Positions 11,384-56,389 of a DNA stretch of 64,000 bases are shown here, one piece after another; position 1 is the stretch's first letter; each line of letters opens with the position of its first letter. Position numbers and translations under genes: made by a program. The stretch comes from a virus, in IMG/VR virus record IMGVR_UViG_3300033388_005265, positions 1-64,000 of that record. The stretch is one strand, 5' to 3'. The notes below the pieces were generated by a model. That model saw only the letters and a program-made list of their open reading frames with translations, searched no databases and was not told where the DNA came from.

Positions 11384-13857
11384 TATGGTCTCCTCCTTCC
11401 TACAGTTTTACTACCAGGACTAGCTCCCCTTCCATTCTGTATATGCTGTGTAGATATTGCTTCAGCACTCTTAAGATCATCTTCTGCTGTGCTTCTCTCA
11501 CAACAACGATACATTGAACTAGCAGGAAAGAAGTCAAAGTATAACTTGTCCTTGTATGAGGTTATCTTGTTCTTACCTATTGCCATTTCTATCCTTGGTA
11601 GTCTCTGCTCTTCTCCTCTTAGGTATGCTCTGTGATATAACTTTGCTTGAGCGCCATAAGCATGCTGGTCATTGTAAAGATGAGCCATGAAGTTACAGTC
11701 ATACTCTATTGATACAGACTCTGCAACATTATTATTTGTTGGCCTTTTAGTTTGCTCAAGCTTTGTGTACTCGACTGTAGCTATAACAGGGATATGATAC
11801 TTAACTGCTATATTGTTCTTAACATAGTGAGAGAACTGTTTAATTTTTAACCTTTCATCTTTCTCACTCATTCCTGCTGCCTCGTTTAGCTTGTGGAAGT
11901 TGTCAAGGAAATATACTATCTGTCTATCAGGGAACTGATCCTGGTAATACTTAACTAAGCTCTCTCCATAGGCTAACGAGTTACCTGCTGATGAATCTTT
12001 TACTATGAGCTTTCCTTCTTGTGCAAGGTTCATTACCTTTTTATAGCCGCGCTCCCTTATTTTTAGCTCATCAGTCCCATTAAAGTATACAGGATTCATT
12101 ACGTGATTCATTTCAAGAGTTGGATCTTCTCCGGCTATACATATAAGCCTAGGTAGAAACTGATTTATACTGTCATCAATAGTATGAAAGATAACACATA
12201 CATCTTTGTTGTATGCAGCTATATTATACGCTAGGTTAGCCATGATTGCTGTCTTACCAGTGTTAGGACTTCCACCTATACATAGGAAAACATCTTGTCT
12301 CCATGGTCCTTTCATAACACTTTCAAACAGTGGCATTCCTGGTAGTAGGAAGCCAGGGTCATCATCACTTTCAGTTTCTTCTTTTTCTTTTGTTGCACGG
12401 ATTGAGTCTATCCAGTTTACTTGGCTAAAATTATCTAGATTGTAGACTCTGCTTACATTGTCAATCTGATTAAGAGCCATGCTAATAATATGTTGAGTGC
12501 TCTCAGGACTTCTTCTTAGCTCCTTGTTCATCTTGTCTACAATAAGAGTTCTTTCCTGCTCCATCTCAGCGTCTTGAACATTGTCAAGCCTGTTGAGCTC
12601 ATTCCATATGGACTTAGCGCTTACGCCTGTGTGCATACTAAGAGTGTTAACCATGATTTCTTTAGCGCAGTGATTAGCCTCATTAACTATGAATGGAATC
12701 ATCTTGTCACAGATATCTTGTGGATCTTCAATTAGATCATCATACCTTTCAAGTCTCCATGTGAAAGCGTCATACTTGGTAAGTGCGTAGAACTCTGATG
12801 ATCCATTCGCCCTTATGAAGTCGTCAGGGTCTTGTCCCTCTGGAAAGTTTAGCAGTCTTACCTTCATGTCTCTGTGTCCAGATAGCTTTTCGTCAAGTAG
12901 CTTCTGTGTCTTGTCTTGTCCTGCTTTATCTGAGTCCAGAGCTAATATGATATCGTACTGCTTGCTGTCTTTCAGTGTGAACACGTGGTCAGTAGTGAAT
13001 GCAGTACCACCTATACAGCATGCATTCTTTACGCCATTGTGGATAGCTGTTATAACATCTGAGTATCCCTCGAATATGTATAGTGGTGGAGAGTGCTTTA
13101 GAGCTCTATGTAGTCCGTAAAGCCTGCTACCCTTCTTATATATATTACACTTGGCGCCGGTAGTTTTTTGATTAACATATTTGGTTCCACTAGTCCTGTC
13201 ACCCTTAACATATGTAAGGTTCCTTGCAGCAAAACCACATGGCCTACCATGCTCATCACATACAGTGAATACCATATGCTCATTGTTGAAGATGTCTTTT
13301 CTAGCTAGGTCTATTTCTCCTAAGAACTTAGCAGTAAACCCAAGAGACTTCATATGCTTGATATAGTCTTGTGAGTTAACAGTACCAACAAGCAGTTCAG
13401 ACAATGTTTTTTCGTCCCATTTTCTCGTCTTCATTTCTTTATCAAAGAGCTTGTAGTTTCCGTTCTCTCTGCTTGATATGTACTCTGATGCTAGCTTGTA
13501 TGCCTTGTATGTTTCTAGCTCATAAAGATCGTCTTCTGATAGTTCGTATTGTGGTAGTTCGATGTCGTATTTGTCTGCCAGGTACTTAACGTTCTCTGTG
13601 ATCCACGCTGGACCAAGTAGTGGCTTATCTTCTAGGTAGTTTGCTGCTGTGAATATGTCTCCTGTTGCTCCGCAACCCAGGCAGTTGAAGTTCTTGTTGT
13701 CACTCTCTGCAAGTATTCCCATTGATGGGTTTCCATCTGGATGCTCAGGATGTATACATGTAAACTGGTAGGTAGTATCTATGTCGTGTTCTTCAAGATA
13801 TTCAGGTAAGTGAGCTTTAATCTTCTCTAGTGCTTCTCTAAACAATTCTTTGTTCAT
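11383..13857 (-). CDS. DNA primase-helicase (CHC2 finger + TOPRIM + DnaB-like SF4 helicase)
   Basis: CIHPEHPDGNPS...CLGC; FEGYSD and LDSDKAG; Walker A GSPNTGKT, Walker B LDNFHKL, SIEYDCN, GKNK. Confidence 0.92.
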   Translation of the reverse strand: MNKELFREALEKIKAHLPEYLEEHDIDTTYQFTCIHPEHPDGNPSMGILAESDNKNFNCLGCGATGDIFTAANYLEDKPLLGPAWITENVKYLADKYDIELPQYELSEDDLYELETYKAYKLASEYISSRENGNYKLFDKEMKTRKWDEKTLSELLVGTVNSQDYIKHMKSLGFTAKFLGEIDLARKDIFNNEHMVFTVCDEHGRPCGFAARNLTYVKGDRTSGTKYVNQKTTGAKCNIYKKGSRLYGLHRALKHSPPLYIFEGYSDVITAIHNGVKNACCIGGTAFTTDHVFTLKDSKQYDIILALDSDKAGQDKTQKLLDEKLSGHRDMKVRLLNFPEGQDPDDFIRANGSSEFYALTKYDAFTWRLERYDDLIEDPQDICDKMIPFIVNEANHCAKEIMVNTLSMHTGVSAKSIWNELNRLDNVQDAEMEQERTLIVDKMNKELRRSPESTQHIISMALNQIDNVSRVYNLDNFSQVNWIDSIRATKEKEETESDDDPGFLLPGMPLFESVMKGPWRQDVFLCIGGSPNTGKTAIMANLAYNIAAYNKDVCVIFHTIDDSINQFLPRLICIAGEDPTLEMNHVMNPVYFNGTDELKIRERGYKKVMNLAQEGKLIVKDSSAGNSLAYGESLVKYYQDQFPDRQIVYFLDNFHKLNEAAGMSEKDERLKIKQFSHYVKNNIAVKYHIPVIATVEYTKLEQTKRPTNNNVAESVSIEYDCNFMAHLYNDQHAYGAQAKLYHRAYLRGEEQRLPRIEMAIGKNKITSYKDKLYFDFFPASSMYRCCERSTAEDDLKSAEAISTQHIQNGRGASPGSKTVGRRRP

Positions 13858-13891
13858 CTTTTCTCCTAATGATTAATTGACTATGGAACAC

Positions 13892-13920
13892 ATTATACGC
13901 CTTCTTTTTTAGAAAGGCAA
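13892..13920 (-). promoter_or_regulatory. sigma70-type promoter upstream of primase-helicase
   Basis: TTGCCT-17 nt-TATAAT; near-identical to 14849..14877 including spacer AAAAAAGAAGG. Confidence 0.7.
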
Positions 13921-13921
13921 G

Positions 13922-13957
13922 AAAAAAAATAGTCCGGCTACTTGGGAGTGGCCGGAC
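13922..13957 (-). terminator. intrinsic terminator
   Basis: GTCCGGCCACT-CCCA-AGTAGCCGGAC stem then TATTTTTTTT on the - strand. Confidence 0.75.
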
Positions 13958-13980
13958 CTGTAACTTATGATGTAGTGTGG

Positions 13981-14367
13981 TTATTCGTCTGTTTTTGTCT
14001 CGGTGTCTTCGGATGGACTGTCTTGTTCTACGTTAATGTCCTGCCCTGTAGTGCTTGCAGTTGCTTCTGCTGCTGCCTTTGCTGTGTCTTCTTCGTATGG
14101 CTTTCTGATATGTTTATCCCAGGCTGCCTTTATGTCGTCTTCACTGATTACGCCTTTCTCTTGTATCGCTCTAAAGAGAGCTACGTTGTTTGCGTTGATG
14201 TGAAATAGTTCCTGAGATATATTTTGTAGGCCTGCTTGCATCCCACCTACGAGACTCTCAAGCATTACGATCCTATCTTCAAGCTGTCTTGCTGTTGGCT
14301 TCTTACCTTGCACTGTTCCTCCTTCTTTATTAGCTTTTGGTTTACTGAATGGTACTACTTCTCCCAT
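13981..14367 (-). CDS. hypothetical protein
   Basis: AGGAGG RBS; N-terminal MGEVVPF; coiled-coil middle. Confidence 0.6.
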   Translation of the reverse strand: MGEVVPFSKPKANKEGGTVQGKKPTARQLEDRIVMLESLVGGMQAGLQNISQELFHINANNVALFRAIQEKGVISEDDIKAAWDKHIRKPYEEDTAKAAAEATASTTGQDINVEQDSPSEDTETKTDE

Positions 14368-52412: not shown

Positions 52413-53444
52413 TTACGCCTTTATATTAATTAATGGTTTAACATGGTGCATTACATGCACAAGATCACTCTGAGCTTCCATAACCTTAAATGGATCTTTA
52501 TATGCAAGCTTTGATTCATCAAGAGTTCCTTTTTCTACTTTAGCTACAATATCGCTTCTTTTCATTCTATTTCTAAAGGCAGACATACTTAGTCTTTCTC
52601 TTATGACTGCACCGGTAATCTCGTCTCTTTTGCCTTCTTTGGCTTCTCTTCTGCCCATTAATCTTCCAGCTCCATGAGAGCTTGAGCATAGGCTATCAGG
52701 ATTACCTTTTCCTCTGACTATGAATGATCCATCTTCCATATTGCCTGGGATAACTCCCAACATGCCAACTTCAGCATGAGTAGCTCCTTTTCTATGAATC
52801 CATTCGCCATCTTTTAGATCTGCATGGTTATGATTACTATTTATAATTAATTTATCGTTTTTACGTATGAGCCAAGTTGCAAGCTTAACAGATAATGCTT
52901 TAGGTAATATCTTGCCAATAACACCTATAACTCTAGCAGCCATTTGTCTTCTGTTTTCAAGAGCAAATTCAAGACAGAAGTTAAGGTCAGTTATATAGTC
53001 CTTACCATCTTGAGAATTTACATCTAATGCATAGTGACCTTCTCTAGCCTTTCCTACACCAGATGCTGCTTTCATGTAGTGAGTAGCTGAAGAATGACCT
53101 ACATTTCTGCTTCCTGAATGGATAATAATCCATACATCGTCATTCTCGTCATAACCTATTTCTATAAAATGGTTCCCACCACCAAGCGTACACAGCTGTC
53201 TAAATCCACCTTTGTCATTAAACATTTCAACCATAAATGGAGTCGCAGCAGTATCCTTATATGCAGGCCATTTAGACTTCTTATCATTCTTATTGAATCC
53301 AGTAGGAATAGCTTCATATATAGCATCAAAGATTTCCTTCCTATAAGACAGGATATCTTCCTTTGCATCTTTTCTTCTTCTTATATCATCTTTGTGGTCA
53401 TCTGCTGATCCGAATGAACCTCCAAATCCTATATCCCATTCCAT
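52413..53444 (-). CDS. rtcB: RtcB RNA ligase, N-terminally shortened
   Basis: TLGGGNHFIE, IHSGSR, NHNH, HRKGAT, IPGNM, SSSHGAGR; PDxH motif absent, DIGCG appears as DIGFG. Confidence 0.85.
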   Translation of the reverse strand: MEWDIGFGGSFGSADDHKDDIRRRKDAKEDILSYRKEIFDAIYEAIPTGFNKNDKKSKWPAYKDTAATPFMVEMFNDKGGFRQLCTLGGGNHFIEIGYDENDDVWIIIHSGSRNVGHSSATHYMKAASGVGKAREGHYALDVNSQDGKDYITDLNFCLEFALENRRQMAARVIGVIGKILPKALSVKLATWLIRKNDKLIINSNHNHADLKDGEWIHRKGATHAEVGMLGVIPGNMEDGSFIVRGKGNPDSLCSSSHGAGRLMGRREAKEGKRDEITGAVIRERLSMSAFRNRMKRSDIVAKVEKGTLDESKLAYKDPFKVMEAQSDLVHVMHHVKPLINIKA

Positions 53445-53650
53445 TATCCATTGTCCTTTCCTTTACAGTGATCGCCTTTATTATAGCATGGTCCAGCTAA
53501 TGTATTGTGAGCTTCAGTACCACAGAGAACACACATAAACCGATCAGTATGATAGTGTGCATCATCAACCCTATCTGTTGGGATTAAGACGTAACCGGTC
53601 TTAATACATTTCATTTCTCTATTACATTTTAAACAATATGGAACAGACAT
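53444..53650 (-). CDS. small Cys-rich protein
   Basis: CLKC...CVLC. Confidence 0.5.
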   Translation of the reverse strand: MSVPYCLKCNREMKCIKTGYVLIPTDRVDDAHYHTDRFMCVLCGTEAHNTLAGPCYNKGDHCKGKDNG

Positions 53651-54169
53651 TTAATATTCTCCAAAATGCAGCATATTATGACATATGCCACACATTAAGT
53701 TGCATTTTTCAACTTCTTCAAGTACTTCTACTCTAGTGTTATTCATCATTCCAGCAGTTATGTCAAATTTCTTTTCTTTTGGATCTCTATGATGAAAATC
53801 AAATCCAGCTGCATTTTTACCGTTATATTCAAGACTACATTCTATGCATTTGCTCCCTTTTAATTTGATAAGCTCTATTTTAAACTGTCTGTTTAGTTTA
53901 CGTTTTTCAGCATACTTTTCTTTACTTTCCTTTTTAACTCTTTCTTGGTTTTTTTCATACCAAGCTTTGCTTCGATTGTATCCAACTGGATATTTACGAG
54001 AACTATGTCCATTAATATATTCTTTTTGTCTTCCCCAGTTATCTATGCTTTTTGTCTTTTTTCCACAGCCACATTTACACTCAATTAATGGAGCATCTTT
54101 ATGCATCTGCTTAAATCTTCTTTTTTCGTTTTCGCTAGGTCTCTTATCGTTTCGCTTTTCTTCTAACAT
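53651..54169 (-). CDS. HNH endonuclease
   Basis: CKCGCG; CIEC...DFHHRDP...CNLMCGICH. Confidence 0.8.
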   Translation of the reverse strand: MLEEKRNDKRPSENEKRRFKQMHKDAPLIECKCGCGKKTKSIDNWGRQKEYINGHSSRKYPVGYNRSKAWYEKNQERVKKESKEKYAEKRKLNRQFKIELIKLKGSKCIECSLEYNGKNAAGFDFHHRDPKEKKFDITAGMMNNTRVEVLEEVEKCNLMCGICHNMLHFGEY

Positions 54170-54253: not shown

Positions 54254-54820
54254 CTATCTTTTTCTTGCGGCATCCTTACTGAGGTAGTTTTTATTGTTAG
54301 GCTTAGCTCTCATAATCTCAATGACTTCATCTACATGATATGGATAGAAGTTATTAGTATCAACACCTACATCAAGAATCTTGCCGATCTTATCATAAGT
54401 AGGCCTAAGGTTTCCATGAGAATGCCCATGGCAATGAAATGAATTAAAATGAGATCTATCCCAATGATACATAGGATAATGGGACAATACTATTAATTCT
54501 CCATCATGCTTTAAGTTGTATATTTCTCTTGTATCTGTAAACACTCCATCTAATTTCTTTAATACATTAGAATAATCATGATTTCCTTTAAGAAGAAATA
54601 TATTGCCATTTAGATAAGTTTTAAACTTACCATATAAAGCTTCATCTCCCCATGCAAAATCTCCAAGATGATATACAATATCTCCTTTTCTGACCTTAGC
54701 ATTCCAATGATCTACCAAGCATTCATCCATTTCTTTAATAGATTTAAAGGGTCTGCCTGCATGTTTAATTATATTCTTATGACTAAAATGCGTATCTGCT
54801 GTTATCCATTTATCTGACAA
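54254..54820 (-). CDS. calcineurin-like phosphoesterase
   Basis: ADTHFSH, HLGDF, KGNHD, HGHSH. Confidence 0.88.
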   Translation of the reverse strand: MSDKWITADTHFSHKNIIKHAGRPFKSIKEMDECLVDHWNAKVRKGDIVYHLGDFAWGDEALYGKFKTYLNGNIFLLKGNHDYSNVLKKLDGVFTDTREIYNLKHDGELIVLSHYPMYHWDRSHFNSFHCHGHSHGNLRPTYDKIGKILDVGVDTNNFYPYHVDEVIEIMRAKPNNKNYLSKDAARKR

Positions 54821-55067
54821 CTCCTATTCTCCTCACAAGCCTAGCTATCTTTATGCTAGGTGTATTCTTTTCTATTTCTTTTACAAGTTTTCCAAGCACA
54901 CTTACTTTTTTCTTGAATGCTCTAAGCTCTTTTACTTCTTTTTCAAGTTTCTTATGTTCTACTGCTAATCTTTCATGTTTACTTTCTAATTCTGGATCTC
55001 TAAGATGTACTATCCAGGACACCCACAAGTTTTCACTATGATATACGTAGCTGGTTTGACCCAGCAA
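54810..55067 (-). CDS. coiled-coil hypothetical protein (start uncertain; overlaps tRNA-like element)
   Basis: Heptad C-terminal half; no clear RBS. Confidence 0.4.
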   Translation of the reverse strand: MLGQTSYVYHSENLWVSWIVHLRDPELESKHERLAVEHKKLEKEVKELRAFKKKVSVLGKLVKEIEKNTPSIKIARLVRRIGVVR

Positions 55068-55111
55068 CCGTACGCTCTAAAGGCGTATGCTCTACATTGA
55101 GCTATACTTTA
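55043..55111 (-). pseudogene. degenerate tRNA-like element with UUA in the anticodon position
   Basis: D arm GCTC/GAGC, anticodon arm TACGC-CTTTAGA-GCGTA, T arm GCTGG-GTCAAA-CCAGC; weak acceptor stem, no CCA. Confidence 0.5.
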
Positions 55112-55122
55112 TCATTTGTGGT

Positions 55123-55300
55123 GATCTAGTTTTAGTCTTTTTATCGAGTAACAAGCTTCATTTTAAAATCCCCACGTATTAACCATTGATACGACACCCC
55201 GTCATTCTCTATCTTTTATTTGGTAGGGGTGACCAGACTCGAACTGGCATTTCAAGTTTAGTTTAGGGTACAGTGCCAATTACTCATACTAATTCCGATC
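55123..55300 (-). ncRNA. circularly permuted tRNA-like RNA (YrlA/Y-RNA-type architecture)
   Basis: T arm and CACCCCT-A-CCA lie upstream of CGGGGTG and the D arm; flanks pair into a long irregular helix. Confidence 0.6.
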
Positions 55301-55520
55301 TTAAGCTATAGGGCAATACATCAACGATGATTTTTATCACTACCAATTTGCCATTCATGGCTGCTTAGGTAGATCTGACAACAACGATAAGTTTATCCCA
55401 TATCTTTAACTTATAAAACTATTAACTTAACATCAAGCCTACAGACTGACATATGCTTTATCCAGGCAAGAAAGCGCATCTCGTCAGTCCCTCCACCATC
55501 CTCAGCTAAACGTTAAGGTC

Positions 55521-56165
55521 TTAACCTAACAGGTAATCTACTATTGACTTACCAACTTTCTTATCAACAATCTCGATGTCGTTTGCTCTTTGACGAGCTT
55601 TTTTAACACCACCGATAAGCTTATCTACTCTTCCGAGCATTGTGCTTTTCTCATGAACAGAGATCATACTACACCATTCTTCACGTGTATACTTTCCAAC
55701 TTTCTTGGTGTCATTCCAGGTATGGATCTGTGCAGGCAATGACTGTCCACCTTCACCTTCCTTAGGGAATGTAGGAGGTACGAGTACAGTATTCTGTATC
55801 TCTTTCTCATCCTTGAAAGTTTCTTCAGGATGCACTCTCCTTAGTACTCCGTCTCTTTGACCTTTATCTTCTTCCCAAGCAACTCCAGGTGCAAGAGTAG
55901 GAATCGAGTCTACAAGCTCTCTAACAATCTTAAGCTTTGACTCAAGGCCAAGGAGGAATGTAGCCGGCAGTCCTTCTGCAAGTACTTCTCCGTCAACAAC
56001 CAGATCTGCAACAGCATTCTGATTTGTAGCCTCTTTCTGAAGAACTACATCGTAGTACTTTGAGACCGGACCAAGGGCATAAGCAAGCTTACTAAGCACA
56101 GTATCGACAACATCACTCCTGTCTATTTCTCCGCCTTCATTTGCCTGTCTTACGTCATTAAACAT
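55521..56165 (-). CDS. phage hypothetical protein; frame open to 56279 without a start codon
   Basis: Upstream in-frame LLAVEGDRAGLAKK... preceded by TAA at 56280..56282. Confidence 0.6.
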   Translation of the reverse strand: MFNDVRQANEGGEIDRSDVVDTVLSKLAYALGPVSKYYDVVLQKEATNQNAVADLVVDGEVLAEGLPATFLLGLESKLKIVRELVDSIPTLAPGVAWEEDKGQRDGVLRRVHPEETFKDEKEIQNTVLVPPTFPKEGEGGQSLPAQIHTWNDTKKVGKYTREEWCSMISVHEKSTMLGRVDKLIGGVKKARQRANDIEIVDKKVGKSIVDYLLG

Positions 56166-56389
56166 AGCCAGGGTCTTAATGTGACCTTTGAAGTGATCTG
56201 CTCTCTTTGTAAATGTAGAGATTGCCTCCTCAGTAGTCTTCTTTGCAAGACCTGCACGATCTCCTTCTACTGCAAGTAGTTAATGGTATTATATATTGTG
56301 CTGCATCTTCAATCGTATCAAAAGACCTCATGGTAGAGACATTTAATCTGCCTCTCCAGTATTCTGCTGCTAAATATGTCTCTTGTATG

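What the first reader, a model, noticed from the sequence alone, without database searches (positions are those of the whole stretch)
55123..55300. Circularly permuted tRNA mimic with the architecture of bacterial Y RNA (YrlA)
Seen, reading the - strand 5' to 3': CCCTA (55268..55264); 15-nt linker; T arm GCCAG-TTCGAGT-CTGGT; CACCCCT-A-CCA (55231..55221); 19-nt loop; CGGGGTG (55201..55195), which pairs 6 of 7 with CACCCCT; D arm GTAT-CAATGGTTA-ATAC; TGGGG (55174..55170), which pairs with CCCTA. The flanks continue the helix: GAGTAATTGGC/GCTTGTTACTC, TTAGT/ACTAA, GATC/GATC. So the 3' tRNA half precedes the 5' half and the anticodon stem is replaced by a long end-to-end stem. Known: YrlA Y RNAs have this topology and occur near Ro60 and rtcB; permuted tRNA genes are known from some algae and archaea. 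Alternative: rejoining at position 37/38 would give an ATTTTAA (Lys-like UUU) loop, i.e. a permuted tRNA matured by ligation.
Basis: partly seen in the sequence, partly recalled or inferred. Interest (0 to 1): 0.84.

Follow-up and report, generated by a model that had tools for sequence, protein, structure and literature searches.

The report
Phage tRNA-mimic RNA beside DUF7873
The flagged stretch is a real, conserved RNA shaped like a transfer RNA with its two halves swapped, no anticodon loop and a built-in CCA. It belongs to a widespread phage RNA family that follows one protein gene of unknown function (DUF7873), not Ro60, the partner of the known RNAs of this shape.

Summary
Observation confirmed. 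On the minus strand, 55248-55176 reads T arm, 7-nt acceptor 3' strand, A-CCA, 19-nt loop, acceptor 5' strand (6 of 7 paired), D arm. A long stem closes it (55300-55123).

It is not chance. A covariance model built from 53 relatives, leaving out this window and its close kin, hits 55156-55268(-) at 46.8 bits, E 1e-15. A strict version of the module lies within 800 nt after the DUF7873 gene in 89 of 119 distinct loci, and 80 of those encode CCA. It occurred 0 times in shuffles. All four helices covary.

The YrlA reading is only partly right. The topology is YrlA-like, closest to the RNase P-cut, CCA-tailed M. smegmatis form. But Rfam YrlA does not score it, the Ro60-binding motif is absent, and no Ro60 gene is in the held 119 kb. 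Twenty of 21 near-complete relatives also lack Ro60. RtcB lies 1.7 kb downstream here but occurs in only 7 of 49 related records.

The permuted tRNA-Lys alternative is not supported.

Best reading: this is the tRNA-like head of a roughly 0.5-kb phage RNA that works with DUF7873. That partnership, the nicking and any function are inferred. This scan found the same family earlier on other DNA. I found it neither in Rfam nor in the papers searched.

The parts
55123..55300 (-). Rod plus tRNA-like head: the element as flagged. The closing helices are GATC/GATC, TTAGT/ACTAA and GAGTAATTGGC/GCTTGTTACTC, around the permuted tRNA-like core.
   Evidence: Sequence; MFE fold gives the same topology; alifold on close relatives keeps GATC/GATC and TTAGT/ACTAA, with one compensatory change, and a rod between them.
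55232..55248 (-). T arm GCCAG-TTCGAGT-CTGGT
   Evidence: It covaries in relatives: GCCGG/CCGGT in L019, GTGAG/CTCAT in L022, ATCCG/CGGAT in L024. Four of its 5 pairs show double changes across 53 sequences.
55221..55231 (-). Acceptor 3' strand CACCCCT, discriminator A, encoded CCA
   Evidence: NCCA follows the 7-nt strand in 80 of 89 strict family members. L019 has G72, which restores the C1-G72 pair.
55202..55220 (-). A-rich 19-nt loop between the CCA and the 5' acceptor strand. In the processing model this is the trailer and leader that would be removed.
   Evidence: Loop length is 3 to about 60 nt in the family, and usually A/U-rich. T at -1 in 61 of 89 members; this clade has A.
55176..55201 (-). 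Acceptor 5' strand CGGGGTG, TC, and D arm GTAT-CAATGGTTA-ATAC
   Evidence: All 7 acceptor pairs and all 4 D-stem pairs covary in the family. The D stem is GCTC/GAGC in L022.
55156..55268 (-). Span matched end to end by covariance model R1
   Evidence: 46.8 bits, E 1.3e-15, model positions 1-104 of 104. The model was built without the window or its close relatives.
55301..55520 (-). 5' part of the same non-coding region. It is conserved with L019, L022, L024 and L026: a hairpin at about 55490-55445, two ATCGTTG repeats (55388, 55328) and a CTACC...GGTAG hairpin. GTGG 55496-55493 is predicted to pair with CCAC 55121-55118.
   Evidence: The structure rests on 4 close relatives only, so it is provisional.
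55020..55122 (-). Second tRNA-like module in normal order: D arm, anticodon arm with loop CUUUAGA, T arm. It has only 3-4 acceptor pairs, extended by a further helix, and no CCA.
   Evidence: Rfam tRNA 42.8 bits over 55047-55107, model positions 5-66. ARAGORN does not call it. It is conserved in L022, L024 and L026 with different anticodon triplets.
54992..55018 (-). Hairpin CTGGAT...ATCCAG at the 3' edge of the non-coding region, before the ATG at 54976
   Evidence: Read. Relatives have a G+C-rich hairpin followed by Ts at this place. The terminator scan found none here.
55521..56285 (-). DUF7873 gene, the conserved partner of the RNA family. The open frame from the first ATG is 55521-56165. 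Homology continues to about 56285 through an in-frame TAA at 56282-56280.
   Evidence: Pfam PF25283, 164.8 bits; 91% identity to P0001 over 254 residues with a stop at the Glu12 position.
52413..53444 (-). RtcB RNA ligase gene. This is context and not a demonstrated part of the module.
   Evidence: PHROG 1075 and Pfam PF01139. RtcB is present in only 7 of 49 related phage records.

Best explanation
The element is the tRNA-like head of a roughly 0.5-kb structured non-coding RNA (about 55520-54990, minus strand) encoded directly after a DUF7873 gene in a large phage's tRNA-gene region.

Shown: it belongs to a widespread RNA family defined by T arm, 7-bp acceptor stem, N-CCA, variable A/U-rich loop, D arm, and a stem in place of the anticodon arm. 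The family follows DUF7873 on the same strand in phages and phage-like contigs.

Inferred: the RNA and the DUF7873 protein form a particle built on the plan of YrlA Y RNAs but without Ro60. The conserved internal loops of the rod, rather than a Ro-binding helix, would be the protein's docking site. In members with a 7-bp stem and CCA, host RNase P would cut 5' of the acceptor strand (here before C55201) and 3' trimming would stop at the CCA (55221). That would leave a nicked two-piece RNA with a tRNA-like end, as reported for M. smegmatis YrlA.

Most speculative: the particle presents a tRNA-shaped, CCA-ended but anticodon-less handle to tRNA-handling enzymes. It would act in tRNA or RNA quality control, or as a decoy during infection.
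For: Family membership: R1 hits at 46.8 bits, E 1e-15. Close syntenic homologues L019, L022, L024, L025 and L026 carry compensatory changes in every helix.

Covariation: 93.9% of cells are paired against 62% in shuffles and 34-51% in slid controls, with 360 double-change cells against 107 expected. Helix 1 was not used to select the sequences and is 77% paired, with double changes in all 5 pairs.

Link to DUF7873: the strict module lies 112-759 nt (median 164) after the gene in 89 of 119 distinct loci, with 1 hit elsewhere on that strand and 0 in shuffles. All 10 loci from a separate genome collection have R1 hits of 51 bits or more beside the gene, 9 after it and 1 before it. The cultured Rhizobium phage RHph_Y65 and Vibrio phage K479 carry it in unannotated gaps after the gene.

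Ro60 independence: TROVE is in 4 of 49 related records, and in 1 of 21 that are at least 90% complete.

Processing idea: CCA is encoded in 80 of 89 members and T is at -1 in 61 of 89. There is a precedent for RNase P cleavage and a CCA end in a 7-bp-stem YrlA (PMC4201824).
Against: There is no transcript, end-mapping, binding or processing datum for any member. Gene adjacency does not prove an RNA-protein complex.

The DUF7873 model (pLDDT 89.7) has no informative structural relative and no recognisable RNA-binding fold.

This copy looks sub-par. It has a C1.U72 mismatch and a weak helix 1. Its score of 46.8 bits is below most members (55-95) and not far above tandem-tRNA false positives (up to about 41). 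Its DUF7873 gene carries in-frame TAA codons. It could be a decaying copy.

Nine of 89 members lack CCA and have a closed, extended acceptor hairpin, so nicking cannot be universal. Helices 2-4 were used to pick the sequences, which inflates their pairing statistics. The held genome is only about 61% complete.
Confidence: 0.6

Rival explanations
1. It is an ordinary YrlA-type Y RNA that works with Ro60, encoded either in the missing part of this phage genome or by the host. DUF7873 would be only a syntenic neighbour.
For: The topology matches YrlA. One relative (L004/L142) scores 38.6 bits on Rfam YrlA over the full model. In three related records a TROVE gene lies next to or within about 7 kb of the DUF7873 locus (G024, G008, G013). 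The held genome is about 61% complete. rtcB is nearby, as in the Salmonella rsr-yrlBA-rtcBA operon (PMC4201824).
Against: Rfam YrlA gives no match here at E<=10, and even L004's score is below the 69-bit cut-off. The GNCGAA(N)G motif is absent. TROVE is absent from 20 of 21 near-complete related phages. DUF7873 is the invariant neighbour.
Confidence: 0.12
2. It is a protein-independent tRNA decoy or sponge. The nicked or intact tRNA-like head would titrate a host enzyme or a defence toxin that recognises the acceptor/T-arm/CCA face of tRNA. DUF7873 would have a separate job.
For: It lies inside a phage tRNA region with RNA-repair genes: RtcB and two phosphoesterases. The CCA and a canonical D/T elbow are conserved while the anticodon loop is absent.
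Against: It does not explain the strict co-location and co-orientation with DUF7873, nor the conserved rod and internal-loop motifs outside the tRNA-like head. No target is known.
Confidence: 0.15
3. It is a circularly permuted tRNA gene whose halves are cut out and rejoined, for example by the nearby RtcB, to give a decoding tRNA with a UUU (Lys-like) anticodon.
For: The gene order is permuted with an encoded CCA. ATTTTAA could form a 7-nt loop if joined to the A before CCCTA. An RtcB ligase gene is 1.7 kb away.
Against: Relatives have no conserved U33-type loop at that place, and the sequence there is a family-wide internal-loop motif. The flanks pair as a long rod. The genome already has a normal tRNA-Lys(ttt). 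RtcB is absent from 42 of 49 related records. The acceptor stems are too varied for one identity.
Confidence: 0.03
4. It is the tRNA-like domain of a two-piece (permuted) tmRNA that rescues stalled ribosomes.
For: The only weak Rfam matches on the element are permuted and beta-proteobacterial tmRNA, for the T arm, acceptor, CCA, loop and acceptor stretch (13 and 11 bits). The gene order is the same as in two-piece tmRNA.
Against: The scores are far below the cut-offs of 47 and 84 bits. ARAGORN finds no tmRNA. There is no G3.U70: it is G3-C70 here, and G.U occurs in 1 of 53 family members. A canonical D arm is present, which tmRNA lacks. I saw no pseudoknots and no convincing tag frame. The short ATG frame that overlaps the rod's 3' strand varies in length and ends in no Ala-rich tag.
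Confidence: 0.03
5. It is a chance juxtaposition or decay remnant of two neighbouring tRNA genes in a tRNA array.
For: The region is a tRNA cluster. Tandem tRNAs do give YrlA-like and R1 false positives of 20-41 bits.
Against: The 3' and 5' acceptor strands pair with each other and covary across loci. No upstream 5' half or downstream 3' half of separate tRNAs exists. The element is conserved in synteny with DUF7873.
Confidence: 0.01

Closest known systems
YrlA (Y RNA-like A; Rfam RF02553), above all the M. smegmatis form (Chen et al. 2014, PMC4201824)
   Same: The order is 5' stem strand, T arm, acceptor-like stem closed by a loop, D arm, 3' stem strand, with no anticodon loop. The D and T arms are canonical. 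In M. smegmatis a 7-bp acceptor stem allows RNase P cleavage and a CCA end, giving two halves that stay together. Further tRNA-like modules are encoded in tandem. rtcB lies nearby in some genomes.
   Different: It is not detected by the Rfam model. The CCA is encoded in the gene rather than added. There is no GNCGAA(N)G Ro-binding motif. Most carriers have no Ro60 gene. The conserved partner gene is DUF7873. The whole RNA is larger, about 0.5 kb here, with an extra 5' domain and a normal-order tRNA-like module.
Two-piece (circularly permuted) tmRNA (Rfam RF04321, RF01849, RF01850)
   Same: The gene is permuted, with T arm, acceptor 3' strand and CCA, then an intervening loop, then the acceptor 5' strand. 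A long helix replaces the anticodon arm. The mature form is expected to be two pieces.
   Different: Rfam scores are 13 bits or lower. There is no G3.U70, no tag frame and no pseudoknots. A real D arm is present. The acceptor sequence varies.
Circularly permuted tRNA genes of Cyanidioschyzon and some archaea (review PMC3978253, listed but not read here; comparison from general knowledge)
   Same: The 3' half is encoded before the 5' half, with the acceptor ends joined by a short intervening sequence.
   Different: Those mature into normal decoding tRNAs with an intact anticodon loop. Here no anticodon loop can be rebuilt in the family, and the flanks form a long conserved rod.

Membership tests
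YrlA (Rfam RF02553) | Scores at or above the family's gathering threshold (69 bits) on the Rfam covariance model | tested here: not met
   No RF02553 match on 54700-55700 at E<=10 nor on the whole 119-kb record at this site. The model does score a distant relative, L004, at 38.6 bits.
YrlA (Rfam RF02553) | Topology: T arm, closed acceptor-like stem and D arm inside a stem formed by the RNA's 5' and 3' parts | tested here: met
   Sequence and fold; consensus structure with covariation; full-length model alignment.
YrlA (Rfam RF02553) | Encoded with, and bound by, a Ro60/Rsr (TROVE) protein | tested here: not met
   No PF05731 match in the held 119-kb record, which is only about 61% complete. 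Absent from 45 of 49 related phage records and from 20 of 21 that are at least 90% complete. Binding itself cannot be tested here.
YrlA (Rfam RF02553) | Conserved GNCGAA(N0-1)G motif on the 5' strand of the Ro-binding stem (Chen et al. 2014) | tested here: not met
   No occurrence in 54990-55530 on the minus strand.
YrlA, M. smegmatis type | RNase P cleavage at the acceptor stem and a CCA 3' end in vivo | not testable with these tools
   Only the prerequisites are seen: a 7-nt acceptor (6 of 7 paired here, 7 of 7 in most relatives) and an encoded A-CCA.
   46.8 bits, E 1.3e-15, model positions 1-104 of 104. This is lower than most members (55-95 bits) and above tandem-tRNA false positives (up to about 41 bits).
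DUF7873-associated tRNA-mimic RNA | Lies downstream of a DUF7873 gene on the same strand | tested here: met
   The gene ends at 55521 and the T stem starts at 55248, 273 nt later. The family range is 112-759 nt.
DUF7873-associated tRNA-mimic RNA | Short helix (4-5 bp) joining the nucleotides just 5' of the variable loop to those just 3' of the D arm | tested here: inconclusive
   At the family's position this copy has ACUUG/UGGGG, with two non-standard pairs flagged. The alternative is CCCTA/TGGGG, 15 nt from the T arm.
Two-piece tmRNA | Match to tmRNA models; G3.U70; tag reading frame | tested here: not met
   13 and 11 bits against cut-offs of 47 and 84. No ARAGORN tmRNA. G3-C70 here, and G.U at 3-70 in 1 of 53 relatives.
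Circularly permuted tRNA gene | The halves rebuild a standard anticodon arm with a 7-nt loop (U33, purine 37) | tested here: not met
   Relatives show no conserved loop of that kind at the junction, and the flanks pair as a rod. No dedicated bulge-helix-bulge search was run.

The most novel reading that the evidence does not exclude
DUF7873 and this RNA form a previously undescribed, Ro60-independent ribonucleoprotein of phages and some bacteria. Host RNase P would nick its RNA to expose a genuine tRNA-like CCA end. That end would be used functionally: charged, extended, or offered to tRNA-repair or tRNA-targeting defence enzymes. The result would be a third kind of two-piece tRNA-mimic machine, beside two-piece tmRNA and M. 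smegmatis YrlA.
Probability: 0.25. Interest if true: 0.8.

Novelty: new variant of a known kind. Interest (0 to 1): 0.6.

Why it matters
Y RNAs with a tRNA-like domain are so far known only as partners of Ro60. A large family of the same design that almost always encodes its own CCA would show something broader. It follows a different conserved protein, and it sits inside the tRNA clusters of phages infecting Vibrio, Rhizobium, Klebsiella, Gordonia and others. That would make the anticodon-less, inside-out tRNA a general scaffold and not a Ro60 peculiarity. It would also give DUF7873 (hundreds of homologues) a first functional handle. And it would add an unannotated RNA gene to many deposited phage genomes, where the gap is left blank or filled with a spurious small CDS. 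Cultured carriers exist, so the idea can be tested directly.

Tried and rejected
- blastn of 54900-55500 against 50,697 phage records found no match.
- An exact 24-nt core search in IMG/VR found none.
- Relatives of the downstream phosphoesterase in IMG/VR: none confirmed.
- MFE z-score was not significant, so thermodynamic stability was dropped as an argument.
- Rfam at gathering and at E<=10 gave only a neighbouring tRNA-like hit and sub-threshold tmRNA fragments.
- DUF7873 function: no PDB sequence relative. Foldseek had nothing at E<=0.001. The best VIA-align Z was 8.9, to designed helical proteins, which is within the noise stated for helical models. The ESM Atlas returned only DUF7873 clusters.
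- The promoter and terminator scan found nothing beyond shuffles.
- Stop-codon recoding as an explanation of the in-frame TAA codons was rejected. The standard code already gives 83% coverage by ORFs of 100 aa or more, and TAA is the commonest stop.
- RtcB as a family partner was rejected (7 of 49 records).
- A short ATG...TAA frame overlaps the rod's 3' strand (MKLVTR in the window). I rejected it as a tag or peptide because the same bases covary as a helix and the frame varies among relatives.
- Literature: there is no paper with 'DUF7873' and nothing describing this pair.

Full report
**What is there**

- T arm GCCAG/TTCGAGT/CTGGT (55248-55232).
- Acceptor 3' strand CACCCCT, discriminator A and CCA (55231-55221).
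- A 19-nt A-rich loop.
- Acceptor 5' strand CGGGGTG (55201-55195), which pairs 6 of 7 with a C1.U72 mismatch.
- TC, then a D arm GTAT/CAATGGTTA/ATAC (55192-55176).
- Flanks that pair with each other: CCCTA/TGGGG, GAGTAATTGGC/GCTTGTTACTC, TTAGT/ACTAA and GATC/GATC.

ViennaRNA returns this topology as the minimum-free-energy fold. The energy is no better than that of shuffled sequence (z = -0.45), so stability is no argument either way. ARAGORN and the Rfam tRNA model do not call the element. The only Rfam traces are sub-threshold fragments of permuted and beta-proteobacterial tmRNA, covering T arm, acceptor, CCA, loop and acceptor (13 and 11 bits). The Rfam YrlA model gives nothing even at E<=10.

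**Context**

The window is the first 64 kb of a 119-kb IMG/VR phage record, estimated 61% complete. That record has 22 tRNA genes on the minus strand between 51.7 and 77.8 kb.

The element lies in a non-coding gap of about 530 nt.
- Upstream is a DUF7873 gene (55521-56165 and beyond; Pfam PF25283, 164.8 bits).
- Downstream are a small ORF, a metallophosphoesterase (54254-54820), an HNH endonuclease (53651-54169), RtcB (52413-53444), tRNA-Tyr and tRNA-Ser.
- No TROVE/Ro60 gene is in the held record.
- Directly 3' of the element is a second tRNA-like module in normal order (Rfam tRNA 42.8 bits, 55047-55107, model positions 5-66). It has only 3-4 acceptor pairs and no CCA.

**Relatives**

DNA searches with the element found nothing. 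The DUF7873 protein has over 700 homologues. Contigs encoding the closest ones (91-55% identity) all have a 540-790-nt gap after the gene, and that gap holds a homologous element. By eye these already show compensatory changes.

| Feature | Window | L019 | L022 | L024 | L025 |
|---|---|---|---|---|---|
| T stem | GCCAG/CTGGT | GCCGG/CCGGT | GTGAG/CTCAT | ATCCG/CGGAT | not compared |
| Acceptor (3' strand / 5' strand) | CACCCCT/CGGGGTG | CACCCCG (restores C1-G72) | not compared | CGAGTCA/TGACTCG | ATCCCCG/CGGGGAT |
| D stem | GTAT/ATAC | not compared | GCTC/GAGC | not compared | not compared |
| N-CCA kept | yes | yes | yes | yes | yes |

I then fetched 160 more loci with a DUF7873 alignment and scanned them with a strict descriptor:
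- T stem at least 4 of 5 paired, with a TTCRA loop;
- acceptor 7 of 7 paired;
- D stem 4 of 4 paired.

The results:
- Among 119 distinct loci with at least 450 nt downstream, 89 have the module 112-759 nt (median 164) after the gene on the same strand.
- There was 1 hit elsewhere on that strand, 5 on the opposite strand and 0 in shuffles of the same 385 kb.
- Eighty of the 89 encode N-CCA right after the 7-nt strand.
- The base before the 5' acceptor strand is T in 61 of 89.
- The nine without CCA mostly extend the acceptor stem into a long closed hairpin, for example L032 and L155.

**Independent membership test and covariation**

I aligned 53 members, leaving out the window and its close relatives (A5). 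I assigned the four helices and built a covariance model, R1.
- R1 hits the window at 55156-55268(-) with 46.8 bits and E 1.3e-15, end to end. The next hit in the window scores 14 bits.
- On non-seed loci it scores 50-95 bits just after the DUF7873 gene. These include the cultured Rhizobium phage RHph_Y65 (65 bits) and Vibrio phage K479 (54 bits), where the gap is unannotated or carries a small reverse CDS.
- In 10 of 10 loci from a separate genome collection it scores 51-89 bits. The hit follows the gene in nine and precedes it in L197.
- Tandem tRNA genes give false positives of 20-41 bits. Chen et al. warned of the same for YrlA searches.

Pair counts on A5:
- 93.9% of cells are paired, against 62% in column shuffles and 34-51% when partners are slid.
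- There are 360 double-change cells against 107 expected.
- Helices 2-4 were used to choose the sequences, so their figures are inflated. The sheer variety of acceptor sequences, with pairing kept, is still not an artefact of choice.
- Helix 1 was not used for selection. It is 77% paired, with double changes in all five pairs.
- RNAalifold recovers the same four helices on its own.

**Where this copy departs from the family**

- Helix 1 at the family position is poor here (ACUUG/UGGGG). The better CCCTA/TGGGG pairing leaves a 15-nt bulge before the T arm.
- In the close relatives L022, L024 and L026 the rod has a perfect 11-bp segment (GGTAATAAGTTC with GAAACTTATTAC).
- This copy also has the C1.U72 mismatch.
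- Its DUF7873 gene has two in-frame TAA codons near the 5' end. One replaces the nearly invariant Glu12 (GAA in L019). The next 40 residues remain 91% identical to the closest homologue.
- Genome-wide recoding is unlikely.

This may be a slightly damaged copy, or these may be assembly errors. I could not decide between the two.

**What it is not**

- *YrlA/Ro60 member.* The Rfam model fails and the Ro-binding motif is absent. TROVE is present in only 4 of 49 related records, and in 1 of 21 that are at least 90% complete. In three of those four the TROVE gene lies beside or within about 7 kb of the DUF7873 locus. That hints the two systems can cooperate.
- *RtcB partner.* RtcB occurs in 7 of 49 related records, so its closeness here reflects the phage's tRNA and RNA-repair region rather than a rule.
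- *Permuted tRNA-Lys.* The ATTTTAA stretch aligns with a family-wide internal-loop motif (about TATTAG..TGA). Relatives have no U33-type loop there, and the flanks continue as a helix. A normal tRNA-Lys(ttt) gene exists at 67616-67691 of the record.
- *Two-piece tmRNA.* There is no G3.U70 (1 of 53 in the family), a canonical D arm is present, and no tag frame or pseudoknots are evident.
- *Remnants of two tRNA genes.* This is excluded by the pairing and covariation between the two acceptor strands.

**How it probably works**

Shown: a conserved, structured, tRNA-shaped RNA module is tied in position and orientation to DUF7873.

Inferred by analogy: Chen et al. (PMC4201824) report that M. smegmatis YrlA has a 7-bp acceptor stem. 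RNase P cuts it in vitro. In vivo it is recovered as two Rsr-bound halves, one ending in CCA. The family here has the same prerequisites in stronger form: 7 of 7 stems, an encoded N-CCA, an A/U-rich trailer-like loop and a frequent U at -1.

I therefore expect a nicked two-piece RNA, held together by the acceptor stem, the elbow and the rod, and carried by DUF7873 in place of Ro60.

The DUF7873 model is confident (pLDDT 89.7): long helices packed on a beta-sheet. It has no informative structural neighbour, so the protein's activity stays open.

The purpose is speculation. It could be quality control or repair of tRNA during infection, or a decoy for enzymes that read the acceptor/T-arm face of tRNA.

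**Novelty and earlier notes**

I found no paper naming DUF7873 or describing this pair, and Rfam has no model that detects it.

After I had reached the DUF7873 link independently, the scan's notebook showed that earlier agents reached the same reading on other DNA. It holds 100 notes in at least 77 genomes. A later check there upheld the observation but priced the RNP claim low. Its pointer to Burroughs and Aravind 2016 could not be followed, because the paper is not held.

I rate this a new variant of a known kind: a YrlA-like tRNA mimic with a different partner and an encoded CCA. The existence of the family is solid. Its mechanism is untested.

Noticed in passing
window 56280-56291 (- strand): The DUF7873 gene has two in-frame TAA codons near its 5' end (MQHNI*YH*LLAVEGD). 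The second replaces the nearly invariant Glu12 (GAA in L019). The following 40 residues are still 91% identical to the nearest homologue, and the first in-frame ATG is about 50 codons further on. It could be a nonsense mutation, an assembly error or read-through. Genome-wide recoding looks unlikely.
   Followed up: partly
window 55047-55107 (- strand), with extensions 55020-55122: A normal-order tRNA-like module has the anticodon loop CUUUAGA (UUA, which would read the TAA stop). It has only 3-4 acceptor pairs and no CCA. Close relatives carry CAA, ACA or UGA at the same position, so the triplet varies freely.
   Followed up: partly
window 52413-54169 (- strand): The RtcB ORF is short: 343 aa, matching Pfam positions 139-425 only. 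It is preceded by a 68-aa ORF and a free-standing HNH endonuclease gene. I did not examine whether the ligase is split, truncated or a short form.
   Followed up: no
G000:C1:74510-74585 (outside the window): ARAGORN reports a tRNA of undetermined type with a two-base 'anticodon' (tt) inside the tRNA array.
   Followed up: no
L004 3460-3790 (same place as L142): Three tandem units, each bracketed by TTTAGGGCC...GCCCTAATTTTT, lie upstream of (not after) the DUF7873 gene. The middle one is the only family member that Rfam YrlA scores over its full length (38.6 bits). It has a closed acceptor stem without CCA.
   Followed up: partly
G024 78702-78902, next to L146; also G008 13577-14290 and G013 84817-85548: In three of the four related phage records that do have a TROVE/Ro60-like ORF, it lies beside or within about 7 kb of the DUF7873-RNA locus.
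   Followed up: no
L005 7159-7547: A complete 183-kb related phage encodes a standard one-piece tmRNA (Rfam 102 bits) about 2.5 kb downstream of its DUF7873 gene, in addition to an R1 hit of 54.9 bits right after the gene.
   Followed up: no
L188 3405-3560 (Vibrio phage K479) and L187 3257-3710 (Rhizobium phage RHph_Y65): In deposited phage genomes the RNA's place is either blank or covered by a small reverse-strand 'hypothetical protein' CDS. That CDS is probably a mis-annotation over the RNA gene.
   Followed up: partly
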